From assembly GCA_003221695.1 (NCBI GenBank), contig QHSX01000041.1, positions 93,486 through 157,485 of the forward strand: a DNA stretch of 64,000 nt. The letters are read 5' to 3'. This DNA comes from Candidatus Rokuibacteriota bacterium (GTDB taxonomy: Bacteria > Methylomirabilota > Methylomirabilia > Rokubacteriales > CSP1-6). The stretch's first letter is position 1. The number at the start of each line of letters is the position of its first letter. Below, in pieces: positions 49,717-61,594 of the stretch. Under the pieces are notes generated by a model. The model was not told the origin of the DNA. It searched no databases and was given only the letters and a program-made list of their open reading frames with translations. Made by a program: the position numbers and the translations under genes.

Positions 49717-49874
49717 GCAAAATAATCTACCAGCCACGCGGTTGACCCGCCGGACCTTCCGGGATTCCCCTCCGTTCGATTCCGGTATTCCTCCGATAGT
49801 CCCCGCCGAATCGGAAGCTCACAGTGGGCTGTCGCATGCAGGCGATCGGCGGGCCGTTCGCGGGGAGGCGCCGA

Positions 49875-51560
49875 ATGAAGACTGCAACGCTCTTGCTTTT
49901 CAGCCTTTCCTTCGTGTCGCTCGTCCACGGCGTACCCGAAGTCGAAGGGCAACCCTCCTGGCCGGACACGGTTCGTTTTCTTGAGCAATCGACATTCGGT
50001 CCGACCGTTCCGCTGATCACGAACGTTCAGCAAGCCGGGTTCGAGGCGTTCCTGGCCGAGCAGCTCGCGGCGCCGATGACCGGATACCCGGATCTGGAGT
50101 TTTGGCCACAGAATCGCCCGGCGAGCTGCACGGGAGATTGCCAACGAGACAACTACACAAATTATCTGCTTCAGCGCCAGTTCTTTCTGAACGCCTTGAA
50201 CGGCCAAGACCAGCTGCGCCAGAGAGTCGCGTTTGCGTTGAGCCAGATCCTGGTGGTCTCCCGGGTGGACGTTCCTCTCCCGAGCTGGATGCGAAGCTAC
50301 CAGCAACTGCTCCATCGCAGCGCCTTTGGCAACTTTCGCCAACTCCTCTATGACGTGACCCTGCATCCGACGATGGGTCGCTTCCTCGACATGCTGAACA
50401 ACCGCTGTCAAGCTCGCACGCCCCCCGAGCCGACCGTCTGCAGGAACGGCCTGCGAGCCCAGCCGAACGAAAATTACGCACGCGAGATCTTGCAGCTGTT
50501 CTCCGTCGGGACGTTTCGCTTGAATCCGGATGGCACGCGGCAATTGGATGGCTCCGGCAACCCGATTCCCACCTATGATCAGCAGACGGTCGGGGAGTTT
50601 TCGCGCGTGTTTACCGGCTGGATCCTGGCTCCTGCGTTGCCTGGTCCATCCGGTATCGGCGGAACGGTCCCGAACTATCGGGATCCGATGAGGGTCCGGC
50701 AAGACGCGCTCGGGCGTGAGGACTATCACGACAGGGGGCCCAAGACGTTGTTGGGCGGCTTCGCATTGCCTGGAGGACAACCGCAAGCGGAGGAGCTGAA
50801 CGCGGCGATCGACAGTATCGCGAATCACCCGAACGTCGCGCCGTTCATCGGGAAGCAGCTCATCCAGCACCTGGTGACCAGCAATCCGACTCCCGACTAC
50901 GTCGGGCGCGTCGCCCTCGTATTCGCCGCCGGCCGCAATTCTCCGACTCAGCTCTATGACGTCGTGCGAGCGATTCTGCTCGATCCGGAAGCACGCGGCG
51001 ATCTGAAAGACCCCGCGTCCGAGCCTCACTACGGCAAGCTGCGCGAACCGGTCCAATTCATCACCAATATCCTGCGCGCATTCAGTGCGACCAGCGACGG
51101 GGTGTTGAACTCGCTCAGTGTGGGCGGCTCGGCGATCGGCTCAGCCGAGATGGGCCAGGACCTCTTCAATCCGCCATCGGTGTTCAGTTTCTACCCCCCC
51201 ACGGCCAGAGTGCCTGGCGAAGGGGTCCTCGGCCCGCAATTCGCGCTCTTCTCCTCCTTGACCTCGCTCCGCCGCGCCAACTTCGCCAATCGGGTGATCT
51301 TTTCCACGATTCCGGCCGCGGCCCCGAATCGACCCACCGGCACGTCGATCGACCTCGCCCAGTGGGATGCTCTCGCGAACGACCCAGAGCAGCTGATCGC
51401 TTCGCTGAGCGGGTTGCTCTTGCACGGAGCGATGTCGACCGAGATGCGCGATGCGATACGGGCTGCCGTGGACAGTATTCCGGCTTCAAACTCTCGCGCG
51501 CGCGTGCGGACGGCGATCTATCTCATCGCGACGTCGTCGCAGTATCAAGTGCAGCGGTAG
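49875..51560 (+). CDS. DUF1800 domain protein (secreted)
   Basis: Start at the internal Met (MKTATLLLFSLSFVSLVHG signal) with RBS GGGGAGG. Conserved DUF1800 architecture, always paired with DUF1501. Confidence 0.7.
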   Translation: MKTATLLLFSLSFVSLVHGVPEVEGQPSWPDTVRFLEQSTFGPTVPLITNVQQAGFEAFLAEQLAAPMTGYPDLEFWPQNRPASCTGDCQRDNYTNYLLQRQFFLNALNGQDQLRQRVAFALSQILVVSRVDVPLPSWMRSYQQLLHRSAFGNFRQLLYDVTLHPTMGRFLDMLNNRCQARTPPEPTVCRNGLRAQPNENYAREILQLFSVGTFRLNPDGTRQLDGSGNPIPTYDQQTVGEFSRVFTGWILAPALPGPSGIGGTVPNYRDPMRVRQDALGREDYHDRGPKTLLGGFALPGGQPQAEELNAAIDSIANHPNVAPFIGKQLIQHLVTSNPTPDYVGRVALVFAAGRNSPTQLYDVVRAILLDPEARGDLKDPASEPHYGKLREPVQFITNILRAFSATSDGVLNSLSVGGSAIGSAEMGQDLFNPPSVFSFYPPTARVPGEGVLGPQFALFSSLTSLRRANFANRVIFSTIPAAAPNRPTGTSIDLAQWDALANDPEQLIASLSGLLLHGAMSTEMRDAIRAAVDSIPASNSRARVRTAIYLIATSSQYQVQR

Positions 51561-51572
51561 CAGGAGACAGCC

Positions 51573-52985
51573 ATGACCATGACGCGCAGAGAAGTTCTCT
51601 GTCGATCATTCGGCGCATTTGGCGCCGCGGCCCTCGCGTTCGAGCGTTTCGGTCTGCTCAACGCCCTCGCTCAGTCGGCGGATTACCGAGCCCTGGTCTG
51701 CATCTTTCTCTTCGGTGGCAACGACAGCGGGAACATGGTGATCCCGTACGACGACTACGCGACCTATGCGTCGACTCGACAGAACGGTGGCCTGGCGATA
51801 CCGCAGACCAGCCTGCTACAGATCGATGTGCCGAGCAGCGGCAGCCGATTCGGACTGCATCCGAGCCTGACGGGCCTGCATGAGCTTTGGGGCCAAGGGA
51901 AGGCCGCGGTGGTGTGCAATGTGGGCTCGCTGGTGGAGCCGACCAATCGCGACTCATACAGGAACAGAACGGTACGGATTCCGGCCAACCTCTTCTCGCA
52001 CTCGGATCAGCAGAATCAGTGGCAGACATCCGTCGCCGAGGGGTCCAGTGCCACAGGATGGGGCGGGCGGACGGCCGACAGAACGGGTGATTTCAACGCA
52101 ACCAGCTTCCCGCCGGTGACCTCCACGGCCGGGACACCCATCTTTACCTCCGGGAGCGTGGAGCGCCCGCTCGCCATCGCCGCGGCGCCGACGCGGCTCG
52201 ATGGAGCGCTGCGGCTCGACGGCTTTCCAAACCCGCCGGATAATGACGCACGATATGTCGCGCTACAGAATTTGCTTCTCCTCGATCAGGGCACGACGCT
52301 GGTGCGCGGCGCAAGCCGGGTGACGGCTGAGGCCGTGGCGATCGAACGCGCCCTGCGGGCCGCGGGCGACCCGGTGGTTCCGCCGTTTCCGTTGAGTCCC
52401 CGCACCAGCCTCGGCAACCAGTTAGAGCAGATCGCCAAGCTCATCAGCTTGAGAAACGAGCTCGGCATGCGTCGGCAAATCTTTTTCTGCTCGCTCGGAG
52501 GATTCGACACGCATAGCGGCCAGGTCGTCGGCGGCAATCCCGCAGCGGGCGGCCACGCCAACCTCTTGTCTCAGGTCAGCAATGCCATGCGGTCGTTCTA
52601 CGACGCGACCGTCGCGCTCGGGGTGGCCTCGCAGGTCGTGACGTTCACCCTCTCCGACTTTGCGCGGACGCACGTGCCCAACGGAACTCTGGGGACGGAC
52701 CACGCGTGGGGCTCGCATCAATTCGTCGTGGGCGGGTCCGTCCTCGGTGGTGACTTCTACGGTGTGGCCGGGTCGAACGGTACCGTGTTCCCGACGTTGG
52801 CGCCCAGTGGGCCGGACGATACGGACGACGGAGGGAACGCAAGAGGGCGCTGGATTCCAACGACCGCCATCGACCAGTACGGCGCCACGCTCGCGTCGTG
52901 GTTTGGTGTCTCGGGCGTCGACCTGCCCGCGGTGTTTCCGAATGTCGGACGATTCAGCCCGACGACGCTCGGCTTTCTCGGCTAG
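51573..52985 (+). CDS. DUF1501 domain protein (Tat-exported, sulfatase/phosphatase-like fold)
   Basis: Tat signal (MTRREVLCRSFGAFGAAALA). Conserved GGNDSGNMVIPY... and FDTHS regions of DUF1501. Confidence 0.75.
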   Translation: MTMTRREVLCRSFGAFGAAALAFERFGLLNALAQSADYRALVCIFLFGGNDSGNMVIPYDDYATYASTRQNGGLAIPQTSLLQIDVPSSGSRFGLHPSLTGLHELWGQGKAAVVCNVGSLVEPTNRDSYRNRTVRIPANLFSHSDQQNQWQTSVAEGSSATGWGGRTADRTGDFNATSFPPVTSTAGTPIFTSGSVERPLAIAAAPTRLDGALRLDGFPNPPDNDARYVALQNLLLLDQGTTLVRGASRVTAEAVAIERALRAAGDPVVPPFPLSPRTSLGNQLEQIAKLISLRNELGMRRQIFFCSLGGFDTHSGQVVGGNPAAGGHANLLSQVSNAMRSFYDATVALGVASQVVTFTLSDFARTHVPNGTLGTDHAWGSHQFVVGGSVLGGDFYGVAGSNGTVFPTLAPSGPDDTDDGGNARGRWIPTTAIDQYGATLASWFGVSGVDLPAVFPNVGRFSPTTLGFLG

Positions 52986-54852: not shown

Positions 54853-54887
54853 GGGCTCCTCCTCTCCTGGCGTATAGTACAAGCATC

Positions 54888-55937
54888 ATGAGCCAACCGC
54901 CCGAGCCCCCGCGCTTCGTCACCCTGCCCGAGATCCGCCGTGCGGCCAGGGAGCGCCTGCCCCGCGAGGTGTGGAACTTCGGCGACGGCGGCGCCGAGAC
55001 GGAGACGACGCTCCGCCGCAACCGCCGCCACCTCGACCGCCTCGCCATCCAGCAGAATATCCTCGTCGACGTCCGCACGATCGATCTCCGAACGAGCCTT
55101 CTCGGCGTGCCGCTCGCGTGGCCGGTGGCCGTCGCGCCGATGGGCGGTCTCGTCCTCTTCCACCCCGAGGGCGACGTCGAGATGGCGCGCGGGGCGGGGA
55201 AGGCCGACACGCTCCAGTGGCTCTCCGGCGCCACCGGGTGGCCCGTCGAGGAGGTCGCCAGGGCCGGCATGGCGCCCCAGATGTTCCAGCTCTACCATCA
55301 CGGCGACCGCGGGTGGGTCGGTGACCTGCTCGCGCGCGTCGAGGCCTCCGGATACCTGGCGGTCGCCCTCACCGTCGACGTCCAGCTCTACGGCCGCCGC
55401 GAGCGCGACATCCTCGCGCGCTGGAGCCCGCGCAAAGCCATGGAGATCGCCCCGAACCCGCGCGGGCCGAACCCCGAGTATCAGGCGCGGCTCACGTGGG
55501 ACGACGTCGAGTGGCTGCTGAAGACGACGAAGCTCCCCGTGGGACTGAAAGGGATCATGACGGTGCGCGACGCCCGCCGCGCCGTGGACATGGGGGTGCG
55601 CCTGATCTGGGTCTCCAACCACGGCGGTCGCCAGCTCGACCAGACGCAATCGACCATCGACGCCCTTCCCCCCATCGTCGACGCCGTGGGCGATCGTGCC
55701 GACGTCGTGGTCGACGGCGGCTTCGCGCGCGGGACCGATGTGGTGAAAGGACTCGCGCGTGGCGCGAAGGTGGTGGCGGTGGGGCGACCGGCCCTCTGGG
55801 GCCTCGCCGCCGACGGCGCCGCCGGCGTCGCGCGCGCCTTCGAGATCCTGCGTGAGGAAGTGCGCACGACAATGGGTCTGGCGGGCCGCACGCGGATCGC
55901 CGATCTGACGCGCGACTTGATCTTCAGGGTCGATTGA
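54888..55937 (+). CDS. FMN-dependent alpha-hydroxy-acid dehydrogenase/oxidase family protein
   Basis: Family motifs are present throughout (PVAVAPMG, QLY, SNHGGRQLD, VVVDGGFARGTDVVKGLARGA). Confidence 0.85.
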   Translation: MSQPPEPPRFVTLPEIRRAARERLPREVWNFGDGGAETETTLRRNRRHLDRLAIQQNILVDVRTIDLRTSLLGVPLAWPVAVAPMGGLVLFHPEGDVEMARGAGKADTLQWLSGATGWPVEEVARAGMAPQMFQLYHHGDRGWVGDLLARVEASGYLAVALTVDVQLYGRRERDILARWSPRKAMEIAPNPRGPNPEYQARLTWDDVEWLLKTTKLPVGLKGIMTVRDARRAVDMGVRLIWVSNHGGRQLDQTQSTIDALPPIVDAVGDRADVVVDGGFARGTDVVKGLARGAKVVAVGRPALWGLAADGAAGVARAFEILREEVRTTMGLAGRTRIADLTRDLIFRVD

Positions 55938-55959
55938 GCTACTAACCCGGGACGAGGCC

Positions 55960-57513
55960 ATGGCCACGACGACCGCGGTCACGAGCGAGCGAGGGTGCGC
56001 CGCCGAGTACGCCCGGCTGGAGGAGCGGATCCTGGCGCGGGACCAGGTCGGCGCCAGCCGCGTGCTGTACGGGCTTTTGAAGCAGGCGCGGCCGGTCACC
56101 GAGATCCTGCGCGAGACCGTGCGGATCCACGCGCCGTACACGCACGTCCCCTACCATCAGCGGCTCGACGACGGCGTGGTCAAGTTCGTGAACAACGACC
56201 ACTGCCTGCTGAGCGAGCGCGTCGGCCTGCCGCTCATGACGGTGATCCGGCCGGAGCTCGCCCTGCTGCCTCTGGCCCAGTCCGTCTGGTACATCCCCTC
56301 GGGCCTCGATCCGTGGAACCAGCTCCTCGGCCGGGCGCCGGGCCACTACACGCGCCTGTACGAGATCGCCGTGAACCAGGAGCCCCCGGTGCCCGAGGTG
56401 CATTGGCCGGACCAGGAGCCGCACGAGATCGACGGCTCGCTCGGCGAACGCCTCAACCACTGGCTCACCCTCGTCCAGCGCGGTGAGGTGCTCGCCGCGT
56501 ACCGGGTCTTCCTCGGGCTGATGGCGGACGCTGCGAACCGAAGGCCGGTGCTCGCCCATCTCGCCTTCGCCGGGCTGATCGACGTCCAGGACCGGATGCT
56601 CCACAACCGCTCCTACACGACGGGCCACAAGGCCTACCGCGCGCGCGCCACCATCGAGCTCGGGGAAGCCCTGGGCTGGGAGAGGGCACGCAGCGTGCTC
56701 TACGCCGGCGTGCCGGACATCGCGGTGGGCCCGCGCTGGTACTCGACCTACGAGATGGGCTCGAACGTGGTCCAGAACGTGCTCGACGGGCGCGATGCGG
56801 AGCTCCTGCGTCAGGACACGCCCCTCACCGCGGCCGAAGAGGCGATGCTGGTCGAGACGATCACCCGCCAGCGTGAATCCTCCGTCATCGACGCGCTCGT
56901 GGCGCTCCTCAAGGCGGGACGGGGCCCGCGGCGGATCCTCGACGCGATCCAGGTGGCCGCGGCCGAGGTCATCCTTGAGACAGGACACCCCAACAACTTC
57001 TCGATGGCGCAGCACGGCTACGAGTACTGCAACACGCTCGGGTGGTTCTACGACACGTTCGAGCACCCGCGGCGCCTTCCGCTCCTGTTCGTCGCGGCGT
57101 CCTTCATCAACCGGGCGGCCGAGCACCAGGCCAACACGCCGAACAACGGGCGCAAGGCCATCACGCCACCCCCGGGCGCGGACGCCTGGTCGTCGCGCCG
57201 CCTGCTCGAGACGTTGGACGCGGCGCTCCTCGCCCTCCGGCCCGACGAGGCGGTCGCGCTCACCGCGACCTATCTGAAAGCGGGCTTCGACCGCGCCCCG
57301 CTGGTCCAGGCGCTGGCCACGGCGGCCTGCACGCTCGGGAACGACCCCCACAACCAGGAGCTCGGGCTCTGCCTGTTGGAGGACTTCCGCCACACCAGGG
57401 CCGCCGACCGCGATCGGTTGCTCCTCGCCAGCGCCCAGCACACCGCGGGGCACCGCAAGTACGGCGACCCGTTGGAGGCCTACCGGCGCTTCGCCGAAGC
57501 GATGGAAGTATGA
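55960..57513 (+). CDS. conserved hypothetical protein (517 aa, no recognised domain)
   Basis: Long ORF with protein-like composition, tightly spaced between the FMN-dehydrogenase and the cytochrome c peroxidase genes (22-nt and 35-nt gaps). Confidence 0.55.
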   Translation: MATTTAVTSERGCAAEYARLEERILARDQVGASRVLYGLLKQARPVTEILRETVRIHAPYTHVPYHQRLDDGVVKFVNNDHCLLSERVGLPLMTVIRPELALLPLAQSVWYIPSGLDPWNQLLGRAPGHYTRLYEIAVNQEPPVPEVHWPDQEPHEIDGSLGERLNHWLTLVQRGEVLAAYRVFLGLMADAANRRPVLAHLAFAGLIDVQDRMLHNRSYTTGHKAYRARATIELGEALGWERARSVLYAGVPDIAVGPRWYSTYEMGSNVVQNVLDGRDAELLRQDTPLTAAEEAMLVETITRQRESSVIDALVALLKAGRGPRRILDAIQVAAAEVILETGHPNNFSMAQHGYEYCNTLGWFYDTFEHPRRLPLLFVAASFINRAAEHQANTPNNGRKAITPPPGADAWSSRRLLETLDAALLALRPDEAVALTATYLKAGFDRAPLVQALATAACTLGNDPHNQELGLCLLEDFRHTRAADRDRLLLASAQHTAGHRKYGDPLEAYRRFAEAMEV

Positions 57514-57548
57514 CACCATGTCAGTCATCCGGTGTTAAAGGAGGCTGG

Positions 57549-58898
57549 ATGCGCGCTCGAGAGCTAATGTGGATCGCCGTCCTGTGCGCCGTCGCCGGGC
57601 TGTCCGCCTGCAAGACCGCGCCTCCACCCGATCGTCAGAGTCAGCTCGTCGCGAAGGGGCAAGACCTCTTCTTCAACGAGACCTTCGGCGGTAACGGGCG
57701 GACGTGCGGCACCTGCCATCCGGCGGAGAACAACTTCACCATCGATCCGGCGTTCATCGCCACGCTCCCGAAGGACAATCCTCTGTTCGTCGCCGAGTTC
57801 AACCCGGCGTTGAAGGAGAACTTCGAGAATCCCGCGCTGATGCGGGAGTTCGGGCTCATTCAAGAAAACCTGGACGGGTTCGACGATCTCAAGAACAAGT
57901 TCGTCATGCGGGGGGTGCCGCACACGCTCGGTCTCCGGACGTCGGTGCAGAGCCCTGGCGGGCCGCGCACCGGGTGGTCCGGGGACGGCGCCCCGGGCGA
58001 CGGATCACTCCGATCCTTCGCGACCGGCGCGGTCATTCAGCACTTCACCAAGACCCTGAACCGGGTCCCCGGTGTCGACTTCCGCCTGCCCACCGAGGAG
58101 GAGCTCGACGCCCTGGAGGCCTTCCAGCTGTCCCTCGGGCGGCAGCAGGACCTGGCGCTGCCGCTGCCGCTCAAGGGCACCGTGCCGAAGCGGGGCCAGG
58201 AGATCTTCCTCGACAACAAACTCGGCAAGTGCAATATCTGCCATGTGAACGCGGGGGCGACGGCCAACTTCCCCGGTCGGGGCCCCCTCGGGAATGCCAA
58301 CTTCAACACCGGTGTGGAGGACCTGCCCGATCAACCCGCTCGCCTGACGGGCAAACGGGTCCCGCGTGACGACGGGTTCCGCACGCCGGGCGACGGCACG
58401 TTCAACGTGCCGCCGCTCGTGGAGGCGGCGGACAGTGGGCCCTTCTTCCACAACAACGCCATCGAGACCATCGAAGGCGCGGTCGCCTTCTACGACGGGG
58501 AATCGTTCAACAAGTCTCCGGCCGGCCAGGCGCTGGCGAAGGCCGATCCCGAGGGCGCGGGCATCGAACTCGATGGGACGCAGATCGTGGCGATCGCCGC
58601 CTTCCTGCGGGTCATCAACGTGCTCGAGAACATCCGCCAGAGCGTCGTGCTACTGGAGACGAGCCTCGCCGTGTCGTCCTCCGCGGAGCGACGGCGGCTT
58701 CTCGAGCGCGCGGTTCACGAGACCGACGACAGCATCCGGGTGCTCAGCGGCGGCGGCCTTCACGCCGACGCCGTCGCCCACCTCCAGGAGGCACGACGGC
58801 TGGCAGACAAGGCCGTCCGGAGTGTATTCTTCGGACGGAAGTACACGGAGAAGGCGATCCGAGATCAGAAGCGAGCGAGAGCGTTCCTTGTCGACTGA
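57549..58898 (+). CDS. di-heme cytochrome c peroxidase / MauG-family lipoprotein with C-terminal helical extension
   Basis: ATG at 57549 with RBS AAAGGAGG. Lipobox LSAC. Two heme sites (CGTCH and CNICH). The spacing and flanking motifs (FNVPPL, FFHNNAIETI) match the bacterial CCP/MauG family. Confidence 0.75.
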   Translation: MRARELMWIAVLCAVAGLSACKTAPPPDRQSQLVAKGQDLFFNETFGGNGRTCGTCHPAENNFTIDPAFIATLPKDNPLFVAEFNPALKENFENPALMREFGLIQENLDGFDDLKNKFVMRGVPHTLGLRTSVQSPGGPRTGWSGDGAPGDGSLRSFATGAVIQHFTKTLNRVPGVDFRLPTEEELDALEAFQLSLGRQQDLALPLPLKGTVPKRGQEIFLDNKLGKCNICHVNAGATANFPGRGPLGNANFNTGVEDLPDQPARLTGKRVPRDDGFRTPGDGTFNVPPLVEAADSGPFFHNNAIETIEGAVAFYDGESFNKSPAGQALAKADPEGAGIELDGTQIVAIAAFLRVINVLENIRQSVVLLETSLAVSSSAERRRLLERAVHETDDSIRVLSGGGLHADAVAHLQEARRLADKAVRSVFFGRKYTEKAIRDQKRARAFLVD

Positions 58899-58917
58899 GG
58901 GGCGTGAGGGAAGGCGT

Positions 58918-59316
58918 ATGACCGTCCGAACGTTCGTTCTCGCGGTGGTCGGGATGAGCCCGCTCTTCCTGGGCGCACCGGCGCCCTCCGCGCAGGAGCT
59001 GACCGAACGGTTCATTCCGGTCGGGCAATCGCCAGGGCTGTCAGGGAAAGCCACCGTCATCGGGAAAATTCAAGCGATCAATGCGCGGGATCAGACCGTC
59101 ACGATCGCCGGGCCGGCGGGAACATGGAGCGCGAAGGTCACGGAGCGGACGAAGATCTGGCTGGACCGGAGCATGTCGCGAAAGACGAATCTCACGGGGA
59201 CGTTCTCCGACCTGCGGCAAGGCTTGACGGTCGAGGTGAAGCCGGACGGCTCCCAGCGCGGAGCCCAGAGCGGCCCCGCCGAGTGGATCAAGGTCCAGAT
59301 CCCGCCGTCCCCTTGA
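58918..59316 (+). CDS. small secreted hypothetical protein
   Basis: ATG at 58918 after GAGGGAAGG. Signal peptide (MTVRTFVLAVVGMSPLFLGAPAPSAQE). The last 28 nt overlap the convergent VOC gene. Confidence 0.45.
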   Translation: MTVRTFVLAVVGMSPLFLGAPAPSAQELTERFIPVGQSPGLSGKATVIGKIQAINARDQTVTIAGPAGTWSAKVTERTKIWLDRSMSRKTNLTGTFSDLRQGLTVEVKPDGSQRGAQSGPAEWIKVQIPPSP

Positions 59317-59899
59317 ACACCGGGTAGTCCGTCCGGTCGACGAGCGCCTCGTCCCCCTCCGTGGGGAGCTGCTCGGCGTAGTTCTGCGCCGCGTCGATGT
59401 CCGTCTCCCACACCTCTCGCGGCAGCTCGTACAGCACCTCGATGCCGTGACCGTCGGGGTCGGAGATGTACACGCTGTGGGTCATGCCGTGGTTGACCCG
59501 TCGGTGGAACGGCACGCCCTTCGCCTTGAGGAACGCGAGCTGCTTGAGCCAGGCCTCGCGATCGGGCCAGGCGATCGCCACGTGGTTCAGCCCCACGCGG
59601 CTCGGCAGCAGGTCCCACGGCTCACGGGTCGTGCCGCCGTCGGCGGAGGGCGCCTCGGCCAGGGCGAGATCGTGGTGGGTCACCGCGCCGTGGGCGTCGA
59701 GGCCGCTGTAGAAGCGCATCTTCGGCCGGCGCCGCCCGGGGACGGGCTTGAGCTCGGCGACGCACCGAAAGCCCATGATCTCGGTCCAGAACCGGTGCGA
59801 GGCCTCGAGGTTGCGGACGTTGAGGACGACGTGGTTGATCCCGCGTGGTGGCTGGGCGTGCGGCGGCGCGAGAGGTCCGGGCGCAGCATTGGTTTGCAT
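59288..59899 (-). CDS. VOC (glyoxalase / bleomycin-resistance / extradiol dioxygenase) family protein
   Basis: ATG at 59899 with RBS GGAGGAAACC. Motifs INHVVLNVRNLEASHRFW and HVAIAW...HGMTHSVYISDPDGHGIEV. Confidence 0.75.
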   Translation of the reverse strand: MQTNAAPGPLAPPHAQPPRGINHVVLNVRNLEASHRFWTEIMGFRCVAELKPVPGRRRPKMRFYSGLDAHGAVTHHDLALAEAPSADGGTTREPWDLLPSRVGLNHVAIAWPDREAWLKQLAFLKAKGVPFHRRVNHGMTHSVYISDPDGHGIEVLYELPREVWETDIDAAQNYAEQLPTEGDEALVDRTDYPVFKGTAGSGP

Positions 59900-59913: not shown

Positions 59914-60882
59914 TCACAGGAGCTCCGGGATCACCCACCGGGGCCGCCTGCCGGCGGCGACGCGTTGGATGTTGTCGAAGCCGTTCCTGAACCGCGCCGT
60001 CCAATTCTCCCACGTCGGCCCGGCGGAGTGGGGCGTGAGCGTGACGTTCGGCAGCGTGAAGAGCGCGTGACGCGGCGGCGGTGGCTCCTCGACCAAGACG
60101 TCGAGCCCGGCGCCCGCGATCTGTCCCGCCGTGAGCGCCTTCAGGAGGGCGTCCTCGTCCACGACCGGCCCGCGGCAGGTGTTGATCAGGATCGCGCCCG
60201 GCTTCAGCATCGCGAGCTCGCGCGCGCCGAGGAGCCCCCGTGTCGTGTCGTCGAGGGGCACGTGCAGGCTCACGACGTCCGACGTGCGGAGCAGCTCGGC
60301 GAAGAGGACGAACCGGACCCCGAGGGCGTCCTCCTGGTCCTCGGTGAGCCGCGCGATGTCGTAGTACTGGACGTCCATGTCGAACGCCGCCGCCCGCCGG
60401 GCGACCTTCTTGCCGATGTTGCCGAGGCCCACGATCCCGAGTGTCTTGCCCGCGAGCTCGTAGACGCGCGTCTCGGCCAGGTTGCCGACCCGCCACTTGC
60501 CGGCGACGACGTCGTTGTGGAGCCGGACGAGCCGCTTGAGGACGGCGAGCATGAGCATCACGCTGTGCTCGGCCACGGCGATCGCGTTGGCCCCGCCGTT
60601 GTTGGCCACCGGCACGCGTGCCTTGCGCGCCGCCTCCACGTCGACGTGGTCGTACCCGGCGCTCAAGAGCTGGACCAGTCGGAGGTTCGGCGCCGCCCGG
60701 AAAAACTCCCCGCCCATCTGCCGGGCAAGGCCCAGGTAGTACTCGGCCGTCGCCGCCGCCTGGTAGAACTCGGGCGTGCCGGGGTCGGCGACCACGAGCT
60801 CGAAGGCGGCCGGTGTCAGGGACCGCGCGATGTCGAGGATCACCTCGGGTTGGCGGGGAGCGAAGAGGATCTTGACCGCCAT
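59914..60882 (-). CDS. D-isomer-specific 2-hydroxyacid dehydrogenase family protein (PGDH-like)
   Basis: NAD-binding GIVGLGNIGKKVA and catalytic region NTCRG...TPHSAG. Confidence 0.85.
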   Translation of the reverse strand: MAVKILFAPRQPEVILDIARSLTPAAFELVVADPGTPEFYQAAATAEYYLGLARQMGGEFFRAAPNLRLVQLLSAGYDHVDVEAARKARVPVANNGGANAIAVAEHSVMLMLAVLKRLVRLHNDVVAGKWRVGNLAETRVYELAGKTLGIVGLGNIGKKVARRAAAFDMDVQYYDIARLTEDQEDALGVRFVLFAELLRTSDVVSLHVPLDDTTRGLLGARELAMLKPGAILINTCRGPVVDEDALLKALTAGQIAGAGLDVLVEEPPPPRHALFTLPNVTLTPHSAGPTWENWTARFRNGFDNIQRVAAGRRPRWVIPELL

Positions 60883-60892
60883 GCCCGGGTCC

Positions 60893-61291
60893 TCAGGCGG
60901 GCGCCAGCACTTCGAGCTGGGCGCGCTGAGCGGCCGCGGTCAGACGCCGGTCGTAGGTCACGACGGCCAGAAGGTCTTCGCGGATCGACAACGCCGTTGC
61001 CAGGTGGATCGCGTCGAGGGTCCTGAGCTCTGCGGGATCGAGCGCCGCCGCCCCGGAAAGCACACGTCGATCGACGTCCACCAGGTTGACCCTGGCAAGA
61101 ACATCACGGGCCCGCCGGCGCGCACCCGAGCTGAAGCCAGCTCGGCGCAAGGCTCGCGGCACCTCAGCGAGCGAGAGCGTACTCGACACGCGAATCGGCG
61201 ACGTTCGGAGCAGGTTCAGCAGCGCGGCTGACTCGGGCTCGGCAACGACCAGCTTCACCAGCGCCGAGGAGTCCAGGTAGAGCATGGTCAC
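60893..61291 (-). CDS. PIN-domain toxin (VapC-like) of a type II toxin-antitoxin pair
   Basis: LYLDSSALVKL with the acidic residues of a PIN domain. Overlaps the upstream antitoxin gene by 4 nt. Confidence 0.75.
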   Translation of the reverse strand: MTMLYLDSSALVKLVVAEPESAALLNLLRTSPIRVSSTLSLAEVPRALRRAGFSSGARRRARDVLARVNLVDVDRRVLSGAAALDPAELRTLDAIHLATALSIREDLLAVVTYDRRLTAAAQRAQLEVLAPA

Positions 61292-61569
61292 CCGCGCTCC
61301 TCTCGAAGCCGGGCGAGCGCGCGGCTGGCTCGGCGTGTTGGGCGCCTCCCGAGTGGCGGGCCCAGCGCGAGGACGTCGCCCTCGGCCGCGCTTGCCCGCC
61401 CGGCGGCGACGAGGCGCTCCAGCAACGTTGACCTGGCGGGAGCCAGGACAGCGACCCGATGTCCCCGCTCGTTCACTTCGAGGGTCTCACCCCGTTTGAC
61501 CCGTTTGAGGTAGACGCTGAGGTTCTGACGAAGCTCACGGACGCCGACTTCGCCTCTGGGGTATTTCAT
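61288..61569 (-). CDS. Phd/YefM-type antitoxin
   Basis: Start at the internal Met (MKYPRGEVGVRELRQNLSVYLKRVKRGETLEVNERGHRVAVLAP), the Phd/YefM prevent-host-death fold pattern. Confidence 0.7.
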   Translation of the reverse strand: MKYPRGEVGVRELRQNLSVYLKRVKRGETLEVNERGHRVAVLAPARSTLLERLVAAGRASAAEGDVLALGPPLGRRPTRRASRALARLREERG

Positions 61570-61594
61570 GTAGCACATGGTAGCACATAACAAA

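What the first reader, a model, noticed from the sequence alone, without database searches (positions are those of the whole stretch)
54888..59316. Compact operon: FMN 2-hydroxyacid dehydrogenase, uncharacterised 517-aa protein, di-heme cytochrome c peroxidase/MauG-like lipoprotein, small secreted protein
Four plus-strand genes are separated by 22, 35 and 19 nt. The 517-aa product (55960..57513) has no motif I recognise. Its position between a cytoplasmic flavoenzyme and an exported MauG/CCP-family di-heme protein is unexplained. The di-heme protein carries a helical C-terminal extension of about 100 aa not typical of CCP. MauG-like enzymes sometimes perform cofactor or peptide maturation rather than peroxide detoxification, so this could be an uncharacterised redox or maturation module.
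Basis: inference. Interest (0 to 1): 0.55.

Follow-up and report, generated by a model that had tools for sequence, protein, structure and literature searches.

The report
Di-heme enzyme plus small partner cassette
The four tightly packed genes are not one conserved unit. Only the last two travel together across at least ten bacterial phyla: a MauG-like two-heme lipoprotein and a small secreted protein, which makes them an uncharacterised enzyme-partner pair. The 517-residue protein belongs to a separate orphan family.

Summary
Four + strand genes lie at 54888-59316 with gaps of 22, 35 and 19 nt. They encode an FMN-dependent 2-hydroxyacid dehydrogenase, a 517-aa protein with no Pfam, NCBIfam or PDB match, a di-heme lipoprotein of the bCCP/MauG superfamily with a 100-aa helical C-terminal extension, and a 132-aa secreted protein.

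The four-gene module is not conserved. In 80 genomes from at least 10 phyla, the di-heme gene (67-88% identical) is followed directly by the small gene in 72 of the 74 loci where this could be tested. The 517-aa and FMN genes are adjacent to it only in near-identical Rokubacteria.

The 35-nt gap in the window comes from a deletion of about 210 nt; the closest relatives have about 240 nt there. The 517-aa gene is an orphan, all-alpha, His-rich family that sits behind different upstream genes: FMN_dh, a metallo-beta-lactamase-fold gene, Opp-type permeases, or none of these.

My best reading is an autonomous periplasmic cassette. A MauG/MbnH-type enzyme, with Tyr at the MauG Tyr294 position, acts on or with a dedicated CusF/DUF5666-like partner. 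The synteny is shown; the mechanism is inferred.

The parts
54888..55937 (+). FMN-dependent 2-hydroxyacid dehydrogenase/oxidase (349 aa). A neighbour by position only; not part of the conserved cassette.
   Evidence: PF01070 E=4e-113 over the full length. NCBIfam LldD, MftD and lactate oxidase models all score far below their cut-offs. It lies upstream of the 517-aa gene in 15 of 80 metagenome loci, all 76% identical or more except one frameshift-ridden contig.
55960..57513 (+). 517-aa cytoplasmic, all-alpha protein of an unannotated orphan family. It has invariant His66, His81, His223, His352 and His464, plus Asp and Glu, so it is a putative metalloenzyme.
   Evidence: No Pfam, NCBIfam or PDB hit for any of 15 diverse members. 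There are 598 representative clusters at E<1e-3. The AF2 model has pLDDT 84.4 and pTM 0.88 and is all helices. Foldseek finds no match at E<=0.001 in PDB (best E 0.2) or BFVD (best E 0.08). Invariant residues are from the alignment.
57511..57523 (.). Palindrome TGACACCATGTCA, overlapping the 517-aa stop codon. It is what remains of the cassette's own upstream region.
   Evidence: It is the only match to TGACA-N1-9-TGTCA in the 64-kb window. The same element, with a 3-7 nt loop, lies 100-190 nt upstream of the di-heme ATG in the closest Rokubacteria loci. The background rate is 0.003 per 400 nt.
57549..58898 (+). Di-heme lipoprotein (449 aa) of a new, unannotated branch of the bCCP/MauG superfamily. 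Features: signal peptide and lipobox, aa 1-21; heme motifs at nt 57705-57719 and 58230-58244; Tyr315 at nt 58491-58493; C-terminal four-helix extension, aa 345-449 (nt 58581-58895).
   Evidence: Searches give the PDB matches: 6e1c at 1.2e-7, MauG at 3e-4, BthA at 1.7e-3, bCCPs above 0.1. Across 81 sequences, both CxxCH motifs, Trp143 and His301 are invariant, Tyr315 is present in 77, the lipobox Cys in 73 and the extension in 80.
58918..59316 (+). Small secreted partner protein (132 aa), a CusF/DUF5666-like beta domain. Motifs: TExFIPxGxSPGxSGK, IWLDR and AEWIKV. There is no conserved Cys, His, Met or Tyr.
   Evidence: It is directly downstream on the same strand in 72 of 80 genome loci. Six of the misses are contig ends and two are real. 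The 72-sequence alignment shows Trp123 and Lys125 at 100% and Trp81 at 93%. PF18914 DUF5666 scores 30.9 bits (above the gathering score of 27) in one homologue and 15.9 bits in the window's copy.

Best explanation
The block is a recent juxtaposition of three separate units.

(1) An FMN-dependent 2-hydroxyacid dehydrogenase.

(2) A stand-alone cytoplasmic protein of an orphan, all-alpha, His-rich family. It is probably a metalloenzyme acting on an imported small molecule.

(3) An autonomous, horizontally spread two-gene periplasmic cassette. Its first gene encodes a lipid-anchored di-heme enzyme of the MauG/MbnH type. Its second gene encodes a dedicated small secreted beta-barrel protein.

Shown:
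- The cassette is a conserved unit across at least 10 phyla and has no third conserved neighbour.
- It carries the MauG-type Tyr at the sixth-ligand position of the C-terminal heme.
- It always carries the 100-aa helical extension.
- In this lineage it sits between the 517-aa gene and a convergent 2-hydroxyacid dehydrogenase that directly abuts the 517-aa gene elsewhere.
- A deletion of about 210 nt then fused it to the 517-aa gene.

Inferred, by analogy with MauG/preMADH and MbnH/MbnP: the enzyme reacts with H2O2 at the N-terminal heme, forms a high-valent (bis-Fe(IV)-like) state, and oxidises its partner protein. The most plausible targets are the invariant Trp123 or Trp81, or the highly conserved N-terminal tail. 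The helical extension may serve as the docking or oligomerisation surface.
For: Synteny of the cassette:
- The small gene is directly downstream in 72 of 74 testable genome loci, and in three further contexts.
- Clustering of all flanking ORFs finds no other conserved neighbour.
- Pairwise identities of the two proteins co-vary: r=0.76, against a permutation maximum of 0.15.

Type of enzyme:
- The best matches are the MbnH-family model and 6e1c, then MauG, then BthA, with canonical bCCPs not significant.
- Tyr315 aligns with MauG Tyr294, 14 residues after the conserved His, the same spacing as in MauG. Tyr-His ligation is what supports bis-Fe(IV) in MauG and BthA (PMC6405878).
- The partner has no conserved Cys, His or Met, so it is not an electron carrier or a CusF-type metal site. 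It does have two conserved Trp.
- MbnH converts a Trp of its partner MbnP to kynurenine (PMC11951088).

Independence of the other two genes.

Deletion and insertion history.
Against: - No biochemical data exist for any member.
- The AF2 model of the di-heme core failed (pLDDT 45), so heme ligation rests on sequence alignment only.
- Tyr315 is Phe in 4 of 81 sequences, which would be unexpected for an essential axial ligand.
- Residues 75-222 of the N-terminal domain could not be aligned to any solved relative, so the peroxide-site residues are not identified.
- Within the window the four genes are probably co-transcribed (gaps of 22-35 nt, no terminator), so a local functional link cannot be excluded.
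- Two genomes carry the di-heme gene without the partner downstream.
Confidence: 0.55

Rival explanations
1. All four genes form one functional redox or maturation operon. The flavoenzyme and the 517-aa protein would work with the exported di-heme enzyme and its small substrate.
For: - Same strand, with gaps of 22, 35 and 19 nt and no + strand terminator.
- The same order is found in L004, L021, L102 and L107.
Against: - Those loci are all at least 90% identical to the window.
- At 79-88% identity the units are already apart.
- Relatives have a spacer of about 240 nt that the window has lost.
- Genes 1-2 are cytoplasmic and genes 3-4 are exported.
Confidence: 0.07
2. The di-heme protein is simply a periplasmic H2O2-detoxifying peroxidase, or an electron-transfer cytochrome. 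The small protein would be a structural or anchoring subunit and would not be modified.
For: - It belongs to the bCCP/MauG superfamily.
- BthA, a Tyr-His enzyme, also turns over H2O2 (PMC6405878).
- Four of 81 members have Phe instead of Tyr315.
Against: - Canonical bCCPs are the weakest matches, at E>0.1.
- The Met ligand position is Tyr in 77 of 81 sequences.
- No cytochrome or cupredoxin donor gene is conserved nearby.
- Median pairwise identity of 68% across phyla, plus an obligate partner, is more than a generic detoxifier would need.
Confidence: 0.22
3. The small protein is a CusF/OB-like carrier that delivers a metal ion or small ligand to the di-heme enzyme, which oxidises that cargo rather than the protein.
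For: - Weak DUF5666, CusF_Ec and NOV5WD8W similarity.
- NOV5WD8W is reported to fold like CusF (PMC10849945).
Against: - There is no conserved His, Met or Cys.
- The conserved residues are Glu, Asp, Lys, Trp, Pro and Gly.
- The similarities are below the family thresholds, except in one homologue.
Confidence: 0.12
4. FMN_dh and the 517-aa protein form their own two-step cytoplasmic pathway: 2-hydroxy acid to 2-oxo acid, then a further conversion. This pathway would be independent of the cassette.
For: - FMN_dh lies upstream of the 517-aa gene in 15 of 80 metagenome loci. It is directly adjacent in 5, and separated by a TAT-exported metallo-beta-lactamase-fold gene in 8.
- Gaps are 11-47 nt.
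Against: - All of these loci belong to one Rokubacterial sublineage. The one apparently divergent case, L169, is a frameshift-ridden contig.
- At the same divergence, 10 loci have an Opp-type permease directly upstream instead, and most have neither.
- More distant homologues have unrelated neighbours.
Confidence: 0.2

Closest known systems
MbnH / MbnP (MauG-like di-heme enzyme that converts a Trp of its partner protein to kynurenine)
   Same: - Best-scoring relatives: the NCBIfam MbnH-family model and PDB 6e1c.
- Periplasmic di-heme enzyme encoded next to a dedicated secreted partner that has conserved Trp.
   Different: - Scores 29.7 bits against a family cut-off of 363, so it is not a member.
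- The partner is about 130 aa, CusF/DUF5666-like, without the His and Met copper ligands. It is encoded downstream rather than upstream.
- The enzyme is a lipoprotein with an extra 100-aa helical domain.
- That 6e1c is MbnH is my recollection. The depositor's name is only 'Di-heme enzyme'.
MauG / pre-methylamine dehydrogenase
   Same: - Two CxxCH motifs.
- The ..PxxHNx.. motif, with Tyr 14 residues later aligned to MauG Tyr294.
- An invariant Trp in the N-terminal domain.
   Different: - No mau genes nearby.
- E is only about 3e-4.
- The MauG Trp199 position is Gly/Lys here.
- The C-terminal extension is absent in MauG.
BthA (Burkholderia di-heme enzyme with a stable bis-Fe(IV) state)
   Same: A Tyr-His type member of the same superfamily with an unknown physiological substrate. 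Found in soil bacteria (PMC6405878).
   Different: [quoted passage not shown]
- Weak match, 1.7e-3.
Canonical bacterial cytochrome c peroxidases (PF03150)
   Same: Di-heme architecture and the heme motif context.
   Different: - Below the Pfam gathering score (20.6 against 25.6).
- PDB bCCPs match only at E>0.1.
- Tyr replaces the Met ligand.
- Nearly all family members carry no precomputed PF03150 annotation, so surveys based on PF03150 would miss them.
DUF5666 (PF18914), CusF and the NOV5WD8W small periplasmic beta-barrel proteins
   Same: - Size, signal peptide and beta-rich core.
- One homologue passes the DUF5666 threshold.
   Different: - The window's copy scores below threshold.
- No CusF metal ligands.
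- It has a unique conserved N-terminal tail, TExFIPxGxSPGxSGK.
BTG13 / BruN (DUF4243 all-alpha non-heme iron dioxygenases, with 4 His plus a carboxylated Lys)
   Same: - All-alpha fold with several invariant His.
- BruN (8yxs) gave the highest TM-score of the PDB search for the 517-aa model.
   Different: - TM-score is only 0.27/0.31, with E=1.3.
- No PF14027 hit for any of 15 members at E<=10.
- The HxxK ligand motif (H386/Kcx389 in BruN, PMC11575538) is absent.

Membership tests
bCCP/MauG superfamily (PF03150 CCP_MauG) | Two c-type heme-binding CxxCH motifs, one in each of two domains | tested here: met
   C53-x-x-C56-H57 and C228-x-x-C231-H232 are invariant in 81 of 81 sequences.
bCCP/MauG superfamily (PF03150 CCP_MauG) | Score above the Pfam gathering threshold | tested here: not met
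   20.6 bits against 25.6. Homology is still supported by profile matches to solved members: 1.2e-7 to 6e1c and 3e-4 to MauG.
MauG-type (Tyr-His) branch | Tyr as sixth ligand of the C-terminal heme, 14 residues after the conserved His of the PxxHxG motif | tested here: met
   By alignment only. H301 is invariant. Y315 aligns with MauG Y294 and is present in 77 of 81 sequences, with Phe in the other 4. The ligation itself cannot be tested here.
MauG proper | Encoded in a mau cluster with methylamine dehydrogenase subunits | tested here: not met
   No conserved neighbour other than the small protein in 80 loci.
MbnH family (TIGR04039) | Score above the NCBIfam cut-off, with an adjacent MbnP | tested here: not met
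   29.7 bits against 362.85. The partner is an unrelated protein of about 130 aa.
Bacterial lipoprotein | Signal peptide ending in a lipobox with an invariant Cys | tested here: met
   ..AGLSAC at residues 16-21. The Cys is conserved in 73 of 81 sequences. Acylation cannot be tested here.
DUF5666 (PF18914), small partner | Score above the gathering threshold of 27 bits | tested here: inconclusive
   Window copy 15.9 bits. Homologues score 30.9 and 23.1 bits, and others have no hit.
FMN-dependent alpha-hydroxy acid dehydrogenase (PF01070) | Full-length match above threshold | tested here: met
   378.5 bits, residues 20-345. Not an LldD, MftD or lactate oxidase equivalog.
DUF4243 / BTG13-like dioxygenase (for the 517-aa protein) | PF14027 match and the 4-His plus HxxK (carboxylated Lys) ligand set | tested here: not met
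   No Pfam hit in 15 members at E<=10. Foldseek E=1.3 with TM-score of about 0.3. No conserved HxxK (ligand positions from PMC11575538).

The most novel reading that the evidence does not exclude
The di-heme lipoprotein is a protein-modifying oxidase that installs a new protein-derived cofactor or crosslink on its obligate small partner, for example a Trp-derived quinone or kynurenine, or a Trp-Lys link in the invariant AEWIK motif. If so, this would be a third MauG-like enzyme-substrate system, after MauG/preMADH and MbnH/MbnP, present in at least 10 phyla. Separately, the 517-aa family would be a new metalloenzyme fold.
Probability: 0.25. Interest if true: 0.75.

Novelty: new variant of a known kind. 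Interest (0 to 1): 0.5.

Why it matters
Only a few MauG-like enzymes have a known protein substrate: MauG, which builds the TTQ cofactor, and MbnH, which makes kynurenine in MbnP.

The pair described here differs from them in several ways:
- It is far more widespread, found in Rokubacteria, Nitrospirota, Burkholderiales, Acidobacteriota, Planctomycetota, Bacteroidota and others.
- It is unusually conserved, with a median pairwise identity of 68% across phyla.
- It falls below the Pfam threshold, so surveys built on PF03150 would miss it.
- Its candidate substrate is encoded right next to it, which makes the hypothesis directly testable by co-expression and mass spectrometry.

The result also corrects an operon call: tight spacing in one genome, created by a recent deletion, is not evidence of a functional module. 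Finally, it flags the 517-aa family as a confident predicted fold with no solved relative.

Tried and rejected
- **BTG13/DUF4243 lead for the 517-aa protein.** It came from the best Foldseek TM-score. I rejected it because there is no PF14027 hit, no HxxK motif, and the TM-score is only about 0.3.
- **Other searches for the 517-aa protein.** PDB profile search and BFVD fold search found nothing.
- **AF2 model of the di-heme protein.** Built from a shallow alignment (74-100% identity), it failed for the catalytic core (pLDDT 45). No fold search was run on it, and no structure-prediction jobs remained for the small protein.
- **Apparent deep conservation of FMN_dh-MBL-517 in L169.** The 47% identity is an artefact of a frameshift-ridden contig.
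- **Rfam search** of the roughly 240-nt spacer upstream of the cassette in relatives found nothing.
- **The palindrome as a fixed-spacing operator.** Loop length varies from 3 to 7 nt, and the element is confined to one Rokubacterial subgroup.
- **The 139-aa gene downstream of the 517 homologue in L001** is unrelated to the small partner.
- **A third conserved gene around the cassette.** The only recurring flanking clusters are generic ABC ATPases, SDRs and alcohol dehydrogenases at variable positions.
- **Literature searches** for DUF5666 and for Rokubacteria peroxidases gave no functional information.
Full report
**Observation.** The window is about 69% G+C. Homologues are labelled Candidatus Rokubacteria / Methylomirabilota. 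Four + strand ORFs lie at 54888-55937, 55960-57513, 57549-58898 and 58918-59316, with gaps of 22, 35 and 19 nt.
- Gene 1 is a full-length FMN_dh (PF01070, E=4e-113). It is not an equivalog of LldD, MftD or lactate oxidase.
- Gene 2 (517 aa) has no Pfam, NCBIfam or PDB sequence match.
- Gene 3 (449 aa) has a lipobox (LSAC), two CxxCH motifs and weak similarity to the bCCP/MauG superfamily.
- Gene 4 (132 aa) has a signal-like N-terminus and no family above threshold.

A strong Shine-Dalgarno sequence precedes gene 3. No terminator-like site lies on the + strand within the block.

**Is it a conserved operon? No.** Close homologues of the 517-aa protein (78-97% identity, all named 'hypothetical', none with a Pfam domain) number in the thousands. 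Only the 97%-identical contig L004 shares the window's context. In L001, L002/L003, L005/L006, L012, L014, L016 and L099-L101 the gene has unrelated neighbours.

I then surveyed 80 metagenome loci:
- The di-heme gene is downstream in 2. Both are 91% identical to the window.
- FMN_dh is directly upstream in 5.
- FMN_dh, then a TAT-signal metallo-beta-lactamase-fold gene, is upstream in 8. Three more loci are truncated but show the MBL gene.
- An Opp-type ABC permease is directly upstream in 10.
- None of these is present in the rest.

The single 'divergent' FMN_dh-MBL-517 locus (L169) is a frameshift-ridden contig of the same lineage, not deep conservation.

**The conserved unit is genes 3 and 4.** The di-heme protein has 6489 homologues in the protein search, almost none carrying a precomputed PF03150 annotation. 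In three different Rokubacterial contexts it is followed by a homologue of the small protein.

A scan of species-representative genomes found 274 relatives. The best 80 are 67-88% identical over the full length. They come from Rokubacteria/Methylomirabilota, Nitrospirota, Beta- and Gammaproteobacteria, KSB1, Thermodesulfobacteriota, Binatia, Bacteroidota, Acidobacteriota, Planctomycetota, Nitrospinota and Eisenbacteria. All are MAGs.

The small gene lies directly downstream on the same strand in 72 of these 80 loci, with a median gap of about 42 nt. In six of the eight misses the contig ends right after the di-heme gene. Only L071 and L078 truly lack the small gene. The 517-aa and FMN_dh genes are adjacent in only one of the 80 (L021, 91% identical).

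All-against-all clustering of flanking ORFs finds no third conserved neighbour. Pairwise identities of the two proteins co-vary: r=0.76, against a permutation maximum of 0.15. They are therefore inherited and transferred together.

**How the window's compact layout arose.** In L004, L102 and L021 the 517-aa gene ends ..AEALGLNTG* and is followed by about 240 nt before the di-heme ATG. The window lacks about 210 nt of this, has a changed 517 C-terminus (..AEAMEV*), and keeps only a short palindrome plus the ribosome-binding site.

In L002 the 517-aa gene is followed directly by a convergent 2-Hacid_dh and a cupin. In the window the same 2-Hacid_dh (59914-60882) lies beyond the cassette and a glyoxalase. 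In L108 a ThDP enzyme occupies that slot instead. The cassette therefore looks inserted, and later fused by deletion.

**The di-heme enzyme.**
- Profile search of the PDB gives 6e1c at 1.2e-7. I believe this entry is MbnH, which fits the NCBIfam top hit to the MbnH family. MauG follows at 3e-4 and BthA at 1.7e-3. Canonical bCCPs are above 0.1.
- The motif ..GPFFH301NN.. is followed 14 residues later by Tyr315. Tyr315 aligns with MauG Tyr294, the axial ligand needed for the bis-Fe(IV) state in MauG and BthA (PMC6405878).
- Across 81 sequences, both heme motifs, Trp143, His301, His165, Met98, Glu83 and Glu106 are invariant. Tyr315 is present in 77 (Phe in 4), the lipobox Cys in 73, and the C-terminal extension in 80; the exception is cut by a contig end.
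- The extension is predicted with confidence as four helices (344-448). The catalytic core did not fold from my shallow alignment.
- Residues 75-222 align to no solved relative, so the peroxide-site residues remain unassigned.

**The small partner.** An alignment of 72 sequences shows a signal peptide followed by a highly conserved tail, TExFIPxGxSPGxSGK. A beta-rich core follows, with the motifs IWLDR, GxFxDLxxGxxVEVK and AEWIKV. Trp123 and Lys125 are invariant and Trp81 is 93% conserved. No Cys, His, Met or Tyr is conserved.

One homologue passes the DUF5666 threshold. Weak hits to CusF_Ec and to NOV5WD8W, reported to fold like CusF (PMC10849945), suggest an OB/CusF-like barrel without the metal ligands. 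There is no PDB sequence match. It therefore cannot be an electron donor. It is either a substrate or an adaptor.

**The 517-aa family.** The exhaustive representative search finds 598 clusters, 162 of them below 1e-30, with full-length members down to about 28% identity. Invariant residues include His66, His81, His223, His352, His464, Asp253 and Glu474, with His129, Asp80, Asp462 and Lys224 nearly invariant.

AF2 gives a confident all-helical model (pLDDT 84.4, pTM 0.88). It has no match at E<=0.001 in PDB (best E 0.2) or BFVD (best E 0.08). The best TM-score (0.27/0.31) is to BruN, a BTG13-like iron dioxygenase. However, there is no PF14027 hit and no HxxK ligand motif, so I do not file it there. 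A cytoplasmic metalloenzyme is an inference from the His/Asp pattern alone.

**Mechanism and rivals.** The best-supported reading is an autonomous periplasmic enzyme-partner cassette that works like MauG/preMADH or MbnH/MbnP: peroxide-driven, high-valent di-heme oxidation of a residue on the dedicated partner. The conserved pairing and the MauG-type signature are shown. The chemistry and the target residue are inferred.

The rivals are:
- a plain peroxidase with an accessory subunit;
- a CusF-like cargo carrier;
- a separate FMN_dh/517 metabolic pair;
- the original four-gene module, which the synteny largely refutes.

**Verdict.** The cassette is a new, unannotated variant within the bCCP/MauG superfamily, with a directly testable candidate substrate. 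The 517-aa protein remains an orphan with a confident predicted fold and no solved relative.

Noticed in passing
window 57500-57548, compared with L004:8930-9185, L102 and L021: A deletion of about 210 nt relative to the closest relatives removed the last codons of the 517-aa gene and most of a roughly 240-nt intergenic spacer. This created the 35-nt junction with the di-heme gene.
   Followed up: yes
window 57511-57523; L019, L021, L022 and L025, 100-190 nt upstream of the di-heme ATG: The palindrome TGACA-N3-7-TGTCA is associated with the cassette's 5' region, but only in the closest Rokubacterial subgroup. It occurs once in the 64-kb window. The variable loop length suggests a hairpin rather than a fixed-spacing operator. 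There is no Rfam match.
   Followed up: partly
L112, L115, L116, L118, L119, L123, L128 (for example L118:3775-7563): A recurrent trio: FMN_dh, then a metallo-beta-lactamase-fold protein with a twin-arginine signal (TRRQVL), then the 517-aa gene, with gaps of 11-47 nt. In other loci the 517-aa gene is instead the last gene of an Opp-type ABC importer operon (for example L113:2492-7503).
   Followed up: partly
L108:7908-9590 (- strand): A 560-aa ThDP-dependent enzyme (acetolactate synthase / benzoylformate decarboxylase-like by eye) fills the slot between the 517-aa gene and the convergent 2-Hacid_dh. That slot holds the di-heme cassette in the window. I did not scan it against Pfam.
   Followed up: no
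window 54853-54887: Only 35 nt separate the divergent ABM monooxygenase and FMN_dh start codons. A TATAGT box lies about 11 nt upstream of the FMN_dh ATG and there is no Shine-Dalgarno sequence, so the transcript may be leaderless.
   Followed up: no
window 60893-61593 (- strand): A PIN-domain toxin (PF01850, E=2e-13) with an overlapping Phd/YefM-like antitoxin (27.9 bits, just below the gathering score). This is a type II toxin-antitoxin pair.
   Followed up: partly
window 49824-52985 (+ strand): A DUF1800 (578 aa) and DUF1501 (470 aa, TAT-like signal) gene pair, an uncharacterised pairing. The same pair lies upstream in L004.
   Followed up: no
window 59288-59316: The convergent glyoxalase-family gene (59288-59842, - strand) overlaps the 3' end of the small secreted protein gene by 29 nt.
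   Followed up: no
L078:5896-7344 and L071:5893-7263: These are the two genomes where the di-heme gene lacks the downstream partner. The L078 copy also lacks the lipobox Cys and has a short deletion after the Tyr region, and it is followed by a MarR-like gene (by eye). In L071 a convergent 774-aa NTPase-like gene follows.
   Followed up: partly
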